DNA of 64,000 nt. It comes from Escherichia coli. Lineage in GTDB: Bacteria > Pseudomonadota > Gammaproteobacteria > Enterobacterales > Enterobacteriaceae. The stretch lies in assembly GCF_965641715.1 (NCBI RefSeq), contig NZ_OZ282453.1; one strand, written 5' to 3'. A model generated the notes under the pieces. That model was not told where the DNA came from and made no database searches. It saw only the letters and a program-made list of their open reading frames with translations. Positions 62,763-62,990 of the stretch are shown here, in pieces (positions within the stretch are counted from its first letter, which is position 1; each line of letters opens with the position of its first letter). Position numbers and translations under genes: made by a program.

Positions 62763-62990
62763 TTACTGGCAGCGTCTGAATTTATTCCCGTACCCGCCGT
62801 TATCCTTCGCCAGACCCGCCAGAACTAACTGAGTCAGTATTAACTGGCACTGGGCTTCGCTTACTCCGGTAGTTCTCGTCATCATGCGTGGCGTTACCCA
62901 CTTGTCAGCAGGTAAGAAATGAAGGACTGCGGCGGCGGTTTCTGTCATATCTTGCTGTTTTAGCATGTCTTTTTCCCTTCTGGTTAACAT
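62763..62990 (-). CDS. small putative winged-helix DNA-binding protein (75 aa)
   Basis: TTGVSEAQCQLILTQLVLAGLAKDNGG resembles an HTH recognition helix plus wing. Confidence 0.35.
   Translation of the reverse strand: MLTRREKDMLKQQDMTETAAAVLHFLPADKWVTPRMMTRTTGVSEAQCQLILTQLVLAGLAKDNGGYGNKFRRCQ

What the first reader, a model, noticed from the sequence alone, without database searches (positions are those of the whole stretch)
62763..62990. Small winged-helix-like ORF next to the methyltransferase
A 75-aa protein with an HTH-like segment lies just upstream (in transcription order) of the methyltransferase. It could be a small regulator (C-protein-like) of the methyltransferase or of late transcription. 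No recognisable Q antiterminator is visible inside the window, which is unexpected at this map position.
Basis: inference. Interest (0 to 1): 0.3.

Follow-up and report, generated by a model that had tools for sequence, protein, structure and literature searches.

The report
Small winged-helix gene tied to phage methyltransferase
The ORF is a real, strongly conserved 67-residue winged-helix protein gene that sits, in many temperate phages, directly in front of a toxic non-specific DNA adenine methyltransferase and its structured RNA leader; it is probably a dedicated controller or helper of that enzyme, but its function is untested.

Summary
The ORF at 62763-62990 (-) exists, but the conserved start is the second ATG (62966), giving 67 aa, not 75. 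It is a genuine gene: dN/dS is 0.04-0.10 between diverged copies, and it matches PHROG 331 (E 1e-25, unknown function). AlphaFold gives a confident canonical winged helix (pLDDT 89).

It belongs to no curated family. TrmB and DprA_WH matches are below threshold. It is not an R-M C-protein: wrong fold, no endonuclease gene, no C-box.

The window is an E. coli lambdoid prophage. Q (PF06530) lies 658 bp beyond the window end, separated by a two-gene opposite-strand cassette, so its absence is a window-edge effect.

The gene is always followed by an M.EcoGII-family methyltransferase. That holds in lambdoid phages of five genera and in three of four divergent members checked; the fourth is cut by an IS. 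A remote homologue, gp51, sits upstream of the same methyltransferase in N15-like phages. The methyltransferase also occurs without the gene.

Between the two genes lie a terminator-type hairpin over the stop codon and a 133-nt covarying RNA leader absent from Rfam.

Best reading (about 0.35): a cassette-specific nucleic-acid-binding regulator of the methyltransferase. Moderate interest.

The parts
62763..62966 (-). Gene for the 67-aa stand-alone winged-helix protein (MLKQQDMTE...FRRCQ), the true coding sequence
   Evidence: The start is conserved in all homologues. RefSeq annotates this CDS. dN/dS is 0.04-0.10. AlphaFold2 gives a wHTH at pLDDT 89.4. PHROG 331 matches at E 1.2e-25.
62967..62990 (-).
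   Evidence: The ATG at 62990 is ACG in phiP27 and WGPS2. The nucleotides are conserved, but this is not a conserved start.
63001..63025 (-). Conserved 5' element TTGCTG-N11-AAGAGTTA, with AGAGTTA about 41 nt before the start codon; the gene's own control region (promoter-like layout or 5'-UTR structure)
   Evidence: It occurs exactly once in each of 93 loci that carry a lambdoid-type copy of the gene, and in none of 13 other loci. It is conserved in Hafnia, Morganella, Citrobacter and Klebsiella phages where the flanks are not. AGAGTTA is at -40 to -43 in most copies and at -51 in the Morganella-type ones. The consensus scan does not call it a sigma-70 promoter.
63084..63106 (-). Intrinsic terminator (tR'-like) upstream of the gene
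   Evidence: The terminator scan reports GCCGTCGAGCGGT followed by TTTTTGTACC. It is conserved in all lambdoid relatives and is annotated as a terminator in SfV.
63107..63152 (-). Inferred late promoter -10 (TATCTT, 63147-63152) and its short initial transcript (GTTAAGAGTGGTTACTTCGCCACACAGCTTAA)
   Evidence: The transcribed block is shared with phiP27 and WGPS2, which have small PF06530-type Q proteins, but not with SfV or mEp460, which have a 250-aa Q. It resembles the annotated N15 late promoter region TATCTT...TAAGTTGGG. This is inference.
62756..62773 (-). Hairpin whose loop holds the stop codon TAA of the wHTH gene; homologous in position to the late terminator of N15-like phages
   Evidence: RNAalifold and RNAfold predict it. 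The stem covaries (CG:3 and UA:3 at one pair). It is a canonical terminator with a U-tract in phiP27, WGPS2, phiKO2, N15, PY54, Valp1 and L102. In the window copy the U-tract is weak and the scan does not call it.
62610..62742 (-). Structured RNA leader of the methyltransferase: closing stem UGGGC/GCCCA, two hairpins in a three-way junction, then a third hairpin
   Evidence: A covariance model finds it in front of the methyltransferase in 17 sources (the window and 16 phage loci), including Vibrio and Aeromonas phages. 84% of cells are paired against 30-51% when partners are slid. 27 of 33 pairs change on both sides against 6-12 when slid. There is no Rfam match.
61554..62612 (-). Orphan beta-class N6-adenine DNA methyltransferase, M.EcoGII family, first large gene of the late operon
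   Evidence: Pfam N6_N4_Mtase E 2.5e-43. It is 90% identical to the methyltransferase of phage 1720a-02, which the M.EcoGII paper calls very similar to M.EcoGII (PMC5778455). No endonuclease gene is adjacent.
63246..64000 (+). Start of a two-gene opposite-strand cassette (DUF6731 protein, then a 147-aa protein beyond the window) inserted between Q and the late promoter
   Evidence: RefSeq annotation. Pfam DUF6731 E 1.7e-10. No PADLOC match. Other prophages carry different cassettes in the same slot.

Best explanation
The locus is a three-part cassette at the head of the Q-dependent late operon of a lambdoid prophage. The parts are a 67-aa stand-alone winged-helix protein gene, a hairpin or terminator plus structured RNA leader, and an M.EcoGII-type non-specific adenine methyltransferase. 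That enzyme is harmful when made constitutively. I propose that the small protein is a cassette-specific nucleic-acid-binding regulator. It would be made as the first product of the antiterminated late transcript. It would bind through the conserved start of helix 3 (R-C-Q..L-T-Q) and the basic wing (F/Y-K/R-R). The target would be a cis site in its own conserved 5' element and/or at the hairpin between the two genes. This would set how much transcription or translation reaches the methyltransferase. The logic is that of R-M C-proteins or Mu Com/mom, built on a different fold. Shown: gene reality, fold, gene order, the one-sided linkage, and the cis elements. Inferred: nucleic-acid binding, the target site, and the direction of control.
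For: The gene is real and under strong purifying selection. The wHTH model is confident, and structural neighbours include DNA-binding (TrmBL2, MarR, IclR) and RNA-binding (SelB) winged helices. Conserved basic or polar positions fall where wHTH proteins touch nucleic acid: R39 in 25/35, Q41 in 30/35, T45 in 34/35, Q46 in 33/35, K/R64 in 28/35 and R65 in 31/35. The linkage is one-sided. The protein was not seen without the methyltransferase, except in one divergent member whose downstream DNA is cut by an IS. The methyltransferase occurs without the protein in Eeyore, OS31, Valp1 and PhAER-1. A remote homologue, gp51, keeps the association in N15-like phages despite rearrangement and about 20% identity (hhalign 94.8%, E 5e-8), which argues against mere hitch-hiking. 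A strictly co-inherited 5' element (93/93 against 0/13) and a hairpin enclosing the stop codon are candidate cis sites. The motif CAGAGTTA recurs 20 nt before the methyltransferase start in the window, SfV, mEp460, Klebsiella and Eeyore copies. Constitutive M.EcoGII expression is deleterious and the gene is silent in lysogens (PMC5778455), so extra control is plausible. The methyltransferase has no Shine-Dalgarno sequence (read).
Against: There are no binding or expression data. The family is not basic (median pI 6.5, median net charge 0). N15-type homologues replace the conserved polar and basic residues with acidic or neutral ones. No palindromic operator is conserved. The protein and the structured leader separate in both directions. 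Eeyore keeps an unchanged leader without the protein, and L102/L103 keep the protein without the leader. This disfavours a Com-like action on that leader. Q antitermination alone could explain late expression. The window's own allele carries Q at the otherwise conserved R39. The methyltransferase subtype does not track the wHTH subtype.
Confidence: 0.35

Rival explanations
1. The protein is an accessory of the enzyme or of its product, not a regulator of expression. It would bind DNA, or the methyltransferase itself. It could target or limit non-specific methylation, or act as a reader or shield of m6A-rich progeny DNA against methyl-dependent host nucleases.
For: The same one-sided linkage applies. 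The fold is also that of non-regulatory winged helices. The DprA C-terminal WH is the best Pfam match, in 19/35 members with best E 1.3e-8. Zalpha matches with TM 0.77-0.78 over the full length of both proteins. O-methyltransferase N-terminal wHTH domains give the top E-values. The neutral charge and the acidic helix 3 in N15-type homologues fit protein contacts. That DpnI-type winged helices read m6A is my own knowledge.
Against: M.EcoGII alone is fully active and non-specific in vivo and in vitro (PMC5778455). The methyltransferase variant does not co-vary with the wHTH subtype. Phages lacking the protein keep the enzyme. No interaction test was possible with these tools.
Confidence: 0.2
2. 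The protein is an independent small DNA-binding late or moron protein, for example acting on host or other phage targets. Its association with the methyltransferase would reflect only a shared, rarely broken position at the head of the late operon.
For: The gene is bracketed by its own conserved 5' element and a terminator-type hairpin, like a moron. Neighbouring slots are cassette hot spots. The methyltransferase works without it.
Against: The association survives between lambdoid and N15-like phages despite rearrangement. It also holds in members down to 27-43% identity. The protein was not found in any other context among the loci examined. The consensus scan calls no sigma-70 promoter upstream.
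Confidence: 0.2
3. The ORF acts only in cis. Ribosomes terminating at its stop codon melt the hairpin or terminator and let transcription or translation proceed to the methyltransferase. The peptide itself would be irrelevant.
For: The stop codon sits in the hairpin loop or 3' arm in the window, SfV, phiP27, WGPS2, Hafnia, Citrobacter and Klebsiella copies. The hairpin is a strong terminator in several relatives.
Against: dN/dS of 0.04-0.10 and a conserved, confidently folded domain show selection on the protein. In L102-type loci the stop codon lies about 25 nt before the hairpin. In N15-like phages a promoter lies between the gene and the hairpin. A cis effect may coexist with a protein function.
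Confidence: 0.05
4. The protein is a true member of the restriction-modification controller (C-protein) family.
For: Only the position of a small HTH-containing gene upstream of a methyltransferase supports this.
Against: The fold is a winged helix, not XRE-type. No HTH_3 match appears in any of 35 members. There is no restriction gene and no C-box palindrome.
Confidence: 0.02

Closest known systems
R-M controller (C) proteins, e.g. C.PvuII, C.AhdI
   Same: A small HTH-containing protein is encoded just upstream of a DNA methyltransferase-containing unit. The presumed purpose is to time expression of a dangerous DNA enzyme.
   Different: C-proteins are five-helix XRE-type dimers that bind palindromic C-boxes and control a restriction gene. 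Here the fold is a 67-aa winged helix, the methyltransferase is an orphan in a phage late operon, there is no endonuclease, and no palindrome is present.
Phage Mu Com/mom
   Same: A small protein gene lies immediately upstream of a toxic late DNA-adenine-modification gene, with RNA structure in between. In Mu, expression is confined to late lytic growth (my own knowledge of Mu).
   Different: Com is a zinc-finger RNA binder that opens a hairpin over the mom start. This protein has no zinc-finger motif (1-2 Cys). The methyltransferase start codon is not obviously sequestered. The protein and the structured leader can each occur without the other.
Stand-alone and domain winged helices: TrmB/TrmBL2, MarR, DprA C-terminal WH (PF17782), SelB WH, Zalpha
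   Same: The topology and size match (TM 0.69-0.81). Weak sequence matches to DprA_WH and TrmB appear in about half of the members. Some NCBI records label the SfV-type sibling as a TrmB family regulator.
   Different: All matches are below curated thresholds. The protein lacks the dimerisation helices of TrmB and MarR. By eye, the residues at the Zalpha signature positions (Asn, Tyr, Trp, recalled from memory) are Gln, Thr and Phe/Tyr.
gp51 of N15, phiKO2, PY54 (75-77 aa, annotated winged helix-turn-helix in phiKO2)
   Same: It is a remote homologue (hhalign 94.8%), also next to the late terminator, leader and M.EcoGII-family methyltransferase.
   Different: It lies upstream of the late promoter rather than downstream of the late terminator. 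Its helix 3 is acidic and it lacks the basic wing residues. It is uncharacterised as well.

Membership tests
Winged helix-turn-helix superfamily | Topology H1-b1-H2-turn-H3-b2-wing-b3 in about 60-70 residues | tested here: met
   The AlphaFold2 model has pLDDT 89.4 with H9-17, bridge 24, H26-33, H37-49, E53-55 and E63-65. All top Foldseek matches are wHTH domains with TM up to 0.81.
PHROG 331 (phage protein family, function unknown) | Significant match to the family profile | tested here: met
   E 1.2e-25, 90.3 bits, residues 9-74 of the 75-aa form.
R-M controller (C) proteins | XRE/HTH_3-type five-helix DNA-binding fold | tested here: not met
   No HTH_3 match for the window protein or any of 35 family members. 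The predicted fold has a beta wing.
R-M controller (C) proteins | Encoded in an operon with a restriction endonuclease gene that it controls | tested here: not met
   The neighbours are the methyltransferase, tRNA genes, TerB and lysis genes. No endonuclease is present, and the same holds in relatives.
R-M controller (C) proteins | Palindromic C-box operators upstream of its own gene | tested here: not met
   The conserved 5' element TTGCTG-N11-AAGAGTTA is asymmetric. The inverted-repeat scan finds only RNA-type complementarity to the start region.
TrmB family (PF01978) | Score at or above Pfam's gathering threshold | tested here: not met
   The window copy has no TrmB match. The SfV sibling scores 16.8 bits against a cut-off of 25.6. 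18/35 members match only at E up to 0.1, best 2.4e-4.
DprA winged-helix domain (PF17782) | Score at or above Pfam's gathering threshold | tested here: inconclusive
   19/35 members match, best E 1.3e-8. The SfV sibling scores 17.5 bits against a cut-off of 22.9. The window copy has no match. The profile against the PDB DprA entry 3maj gives E 0.5.
Mu Com-type translational activators | Zinc-finger (four-Cys) RNA-binding fold | tested here: not met
   Only C40 is conserved, plus a variable second Cys. The fold is a wHTH.
Mu Com-type translational activators | The target gene's start region is locked in a hairpin that the protein opens | tested here: inconclusive
   A covarying leader exists, but its conserved helices end before the start codon. 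The methyltransferase simply lacks a Shine-Dalgarno sequence. The leader and the protein occur without each other.
Zalpha (Z-DNA/Z-RNA-binding) domains | Signature Asn and Tyr on helix 3 and Trp plus prolines in the wing (recalled from memory) | not tested
   The fold match is good (1qbj TM 0.77-0.78, rmsd 1.4-1.6). By eye the equivalent residues are Q41, T45 and F/Y63. No residue-level alignment was produced by a tool.
M.EcoGII family (the neighbouring methyltransferase) | Beta-class N6_N4 methyltransferase closely related to M.EcoGII | tested here: met
   PF01555 E 2.5e-43. It is 90.1% identical to the phage 1720a-02 methyltransferase, which PMC5778455 calls very similar to M.EcoGII. It was not compared with the M.EcoGII sequence itself, and non-specificity was not tested.

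The most novel reading that the evidence does not exclude
The winged-helix protein, the hairpin over its stop codon and the Rfam-absent three-way-junction leader together form an undescribed multi-layer control cassette for toxic non-specific adenine methyltransferases. The cassette would be spread across lambdoid, N15-like, Vibrio and Aeromonas temperate phages, including Stx phages. The small protein would act either as the RNA- or DNA-binding gatekeeper or as a reader or shield of m6A-saturated progeny DNA.
Probability: 0.15. Interest if true: 0.65.

Novelty: new variant of a known kind. Interest (0 to 1): 0.4.

Why it matters
M.EcoGII-type enzymes methylate every adenine in DNA, and also adenine in RNA, and they are widely used as tools. 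Yet how phages keep them silent in lysogens and safe during lytic growth is unknown. A dedicated small winged-helix protein and a conserved structured leader, present in hundreds of E. coli, Shigella and Salmonella prophages and sitting just upstream of stx in several Shiga-toxin phages, are concrete and testable candidates for that control. The region lies on the same late transcript as stx, so elements that modulate read-through here could also affect toxin expression. The protein by itself, however, remains one more uncharacterised phage winged-helix protein.

Tried and rejected
- The 75-aa reading was rejected in favour of 67 aa.
- Sequence search of the PDB with two family profiles gave only sub-threshold wHTH matches: DsyB N-terminal domain at E 0.015 and DprA at E 0.5.
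- NCBIfam and PADLOC gave nothing for the protein.
- Foldseek against the PDB and BFVD gave only generic wHTH neighbours, none with E <= 0.001.
- Rfam found no family for the spacer or leader in the window or in four relatives.
- A small protein coded in the spacer (MGGWWVLV...) was rejected. The frame shifts in phiP27, and N15-type leaders keep the pairing but not the peptide.
- RNAalifold's first long-range pairing of GGTCACAAGC with the region before the methyltransferase ATG was replaced by local hairpins once N15-type sequences were added.
- A sigma-70 promoter directly upstream of the gene is not called by the scan. Sigma-54, sigma-32 and sigma-E readings of the 5' element did not fit by eye.
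- Literature searches for the protein accessions, and attempts to retrieve the phiKO2 and N15 late-promoter papers, found nothing held. What I say about N15 p52 and Q rests on GenBank annotation and on memory.
- Pas sRNAs from a 2026 preprint map near TerB, not here.
- An AlphaFold test of protein-methyltransferase docking or dimerisation was not run, because the tool returns no interface information.

Full report
**Where the window comes from**

The last 2.6 kb of the window is 100% identical to the chromosome of E. coli EC416, NZ_AP027404.1. The surrounding annotation is a lambdoid prophage read on the minus strand. In transcription order it runs integrase ... Q, then an opposite-strand two-gene cassette, then a small hypothetical protein. 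After that come a DNA methyltransferase, tRNA-Ile and tRNA-Arg, TerB, DUF3927, holins, a GH108 endolysin, terminase, and head and tail genes.

**The observation**

- An ORF of 75 codons runs from 62990 to 62763 (-).
- It ends 150 nt before a 352-aa N6_N4 methyltransferase at 61554-62612 (-) (Pfam E 2.5e-43).
- The first ATG is not conserved. It is ACG in phiP27 and Stx2a_WGPS2.
- Every homologue begins at MLKQQDMTE. That second ATG (62966) has AAGGG 8 nt upstream, and RefSeq calls the 67-aa form.
- Size alone means nothing here, since the 6-kb stretch has 67 ORFs of at least 30 aa.
- The gene is nevertheless real. dN/dS is 0.04 (SfV against phiP27), 0.065 (SfV against WGPS2), 0.04 (SfV against a Klebsiella phage) and 0.10 (Citrobacter against Klebsiella).
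- It matches PHROG 331, function unknown, at E 1.2e-25. The exact 67-aa sequence is on at least 1000 contigs.

**What the protein is**

An alignment of 35 members gives an AlphaFold2 model with pLDDT 89.4 and pTM 0.77. The order is H1, b1, H2, H3, b2, b3, a canonical winged helix.

Foldseek finds only winged-helix domains:
- TrmBL2, TM 0.81
- Zalpha of ADAR1, TM 0.77-0.78 over the full length of both proteins
- the SelB mRNA-binding domain, TM 0.69
- MarR and IclR regulators
- the N-terminal wHTH of O-methyltransferases

No match has E <= 0.001, as expected for so small a domain.

At sequence level the window copy has only E of about 0.06 to MarR_2 and DnaD_N. Across the family, 19/35 members touch DprA_WH (best E 1.3e-8) and 18/35 touch TrmB. 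The SfV sibling stays under both curated cut-offs. The 'TrmB family' label that some NCBI records carry is therefore weak.

An exhaustive profile search of 1.84 billion representatives finds only 102 clusters, many of them fragments. This is a narrow family of Enterobacterales temperate phages.

The most conserved residues are:
- M7-T8 at the N-cap of H1
- R39-C40-Q41-L-I-L-T45-Q46-L in helix 3
- A50-G51
- F/Y63-K/R64-R65 in the wing

The middle (H1 to H2) is mosaic, with two subtypes only about 50% identical. The family is not basic (median pI 6.5). The window's allele has Q at position 39, where 25 of 35 members have R.

**The Q question**

A 121-aa PF06530 Q protein (E 4.6e-52) is encoded at window-equivalent 64658-65023. 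That is 658 bp beyond the window end and 1.69 kb upstream of the small gene.

Between them lies a cassette on the opposite strand: DUF6731 plus a 147-aa protein, with no PADLOC match. Other prophages carry unrelated cassettes in the same slot.

Downstream of the cassette the window keeps a -10-like TATCTT and a short conserved transcribed block. It shares that block with phiP27 and WGPS2, which have small Q proteins, but not with SfV or mEp460, which have a 250-aa Q. An intrinsic terminator follows at 63084-63106. I read these as pR' and tR'; that is inference. The small gene would then be the first cistron of the antiterminated late transcript.

**Linkage to the methyltransferase**

- In 77 of 80 IMG/VR loci the methyltransferase follows at a fixed 150-nt distance. 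The other three contigs end about 80 bp after the ORF.
- The same order holds in mEp460, SfV (orf47/orf48), phiP27 (L23/L24, just before stx2e) and Stx2a_WGPS2 (before stx2a).
- It also holds in Hafnia yong2, Morganella IME1369_02, Citrobacter phiNP and Klebsiella Kp4866-6.
- Divergent members at 43%, 36% and 27% identity again have an N6_N4 methyltransferase next. A fourth is cut by an IS.
- The reverse does not hold. Of 95 phage genomes with this methyltransferase family, 57 have the small gene.
- Eeyore, Serratia OS31, Vibrio Valp1 and Aeromonas PhAER-1 have the methyltransferase without it.
- N15, phiKO2, PY54, PhiR46_1 and MStein have a remote homologue, gp51 (hhalign 94.8%, E 5e-8). It lies upstream of the annotated late promoter, terminator and methyltransferase.

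The association is therefore old and survives rearrangement, but it is one-sided.

The methyltransferase is 90% identical to that of phage 1720a-02. Murray et al. describe that enzyme as very similar to the non-specific M.EcoGII, which is silent in lysogens and deleterious when expressed constitutively (PMC5778455).

**Cis elements around the gene**

1. *A conserved 5' element.* TTGCTG-N11-(A/C)AGAGTTA has AGAGTTA about 41 nt before the start codon (-40 to -43 in most copies, -51 in the Morganella-type ones). It occurs once in each of 93 lambdoid-type loci and in none of 13 others. It is conserved across genera where the flanks are not. It has a promoter-like layout (TTGCTG, 17 bp, TAYNNG), but the consensus scan does not call it. 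Parts of it are complementary to the start-codon region.
2. *A GC-rich hairpin at 62756-62773.* Its loop holds the stop codon. The stem covaries. In phiP27, WGPS2, N15-like phages, Valp1 and L102 it is a canonical terminator with a U-tract. In the window copy the U-tract is weak.
3. *A 133-nt leader at 62610-62742.* It is more conserved than the gene's own middle. Adding N15-type sequences shows a three-way junction closed by UGGGC/GCCCA, plus a further hairpin, with wholly different helix sequences. A covariance model built from eight lambdoid leaders finds it before the methyltransferase in 17 sources (the window and 16 phage loci), including Vibrio and Aeromonas phages. On that alignment 84% of cells pair, against 30-51% when partners are slid. 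27 of 33 pairs change on both sides, against 6-12 when slid. The caveat is that the alignment was fitted to the model. Rfam has no match. The peptide that could be read from the spacer is not conserved.
4. *The methyltransferase start.* The methyltransferase has no Shine-Dalgarno sequence.

The leader belongs to the methyltransferase, not to the small gene. Eeyore keeps it unchanged without the gene. A Morganellaceae-like lineage (L102/L103) has the gene, a terminator and an ordinary Shine-Dalgarno sequence but no leader.

**Mechanism**

The one-sided, ancient linkage fits a factor that is useless without the methyltransferase. The residues conserved on helix 3 and the wing fit nucleic-acid contact. 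The enzyme's toxicity gives a reason for extra control.

I therefore favour a cassette-specific nucleic-acid-binding regulator, with confidence about 0.35. It would act at its own 5' element and/or at the hairpin between the genes. The logic is that of C-proteins or Mu Com/mom, on a different fold.

Against this:
- there are no data on binding or expression
- the family's net charge is neutral
- there is no palindromic operator
- N15-type homologues have an acidic helix 3
- the protein and the leader dissociate, which disfavours a strictly Com-like action on that leader

Rivals:
- an accessory of the enzyme or a reader or shield of its m6A product (0.2)
- an unrelated small late or moron protein linked only by position (0.2)
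- a purely cis-acting ORF that melts the hairpin (0.05, contradicted by dN/dS)
- a true C-protein (0.02, fold and context fail)

**Comparison with known systems and verdict**

The protein is a member of the winged-helix superfamily and of PHROG 331. It is not a C-protein, not Com, and not a curated TrmB family member. Its relation to DprA_WH is unresolved.

I found no description of the cassette as a whole (small wHTH, hairpin, structured leader, M.EcoGII-type enzyme) in the literature searches I could run.

I rate it a new variant of a known kind, a small regulator-like protein coupled to a DNA-modification gene. Interest is moderate (0.4). The protein alone is ordinary. The conserved leader RNA and the link to a biotechnologically important, toxic enzyme on the stx late transcript raise it somewhat.

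Noticed in passing
window 62610-62742 (-); also L003, L004, L005, L086-L098: A 133-nt structured RNA leader lies directly upstream of M.EcoGII-family methyltransferase genes. It has a three-way junction closed by invariant UGGGC/GCCCA plus a further hairpin. It is conserved from lambdoid and N15-like phages to Vibrio and Aeromonas phages, has strong covariation, and has no Rfam family. Its function is unknown.
   Followed up: yes
window 62756-62773 (-): A hairpin holds the wHTH stop codon in its loop. It is positionally homologous to the annotated late terminator of N15 and phiKO2. It is a strong terminator in several relatives but has a degraded U-tract in the window copy.
   Followed up: partly
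window 63001-63025 (-) and 62632-62640 (-): The motif CAGAGTTA(Y) occurs about 41 nt before the wHTH start in nearly all lambdoid copies. A second copy, CCAGAGTTAC, lies 20 nt before the methyltransferase start in the window, SfV, mEp460, a Klebsiella phage and Eeyore. Only CAGAG is present there in phiP27, WGPS2 and Citrobacter, and the motif is absent in Hafnia and Morganella-type loci.
   Followed up: partly
window 63048-63055 (-), 62727-62734 (-), and 10 more sites: Chi (GCTGGTGG) occurs 12 times against 2.4 expected, 11 of them on the minus strand. Two copies flank the small gene. One of these is inside helix P1 of the conserved leader. Another sits in the terminator hairpin of the unrelated locus L102.
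   Followed up: partly
window 63246-64000 (+) and beyond (L001 16847-18235): An opposite-strand two-gene cassette (DUF6731 protein plus a 147-aa protein, no PADLOC match) sits between Q and the late promoter. Other prophages carry different cassettes in the same slot: WGPS2 has 343 aa plus 179 aa, strain 2015C-3163 has 289 aa plus 140 aa, phiP27 has a GIY-YIG nuclease, and mEp460 has a 138-aa ORF. This looks like an insertion hot spot, possibly for defence genes.
   Followed up: partly
window 62763-62966 (-), codon 39: The window's allele has Gln at position 39 (SEAQCQ), where 25 of 35 family members, including its nearest relatives, have Arg at the start of the recognition helix. The allele is nevertheless common, being on at least 1000 contigs.
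   Followed up: no
window 62613-62620 (-): A GATC (Dam) site abuts the methyltransferase start codon (CTGATCCATG). It is kept as GATC(C/T)ATG in most lambdoid copies but not in Hafnia or N15-type leaders.
   Followed up: no
window 60410-61360 (-): About 950 nt between TerB and the tRNA genes have no convincing ORF. There is a sub-threshold tRNA-like match at 60781-60839 and a weak PhrS match at 60845-60996. A 2026 preprint places the PasA and PasC prophage sRNAs near TerB genes. I did not check whether one lies here.
   Followed up: no
window 63158-63170 (+): A terminator-like hairpin on the plus strand sits just left of the DUF6731 cassette, where my inferred late promoter's -35 region would be. 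The cassette insertion may have replaced the -35 and Q-binding region.
   Followed up: no
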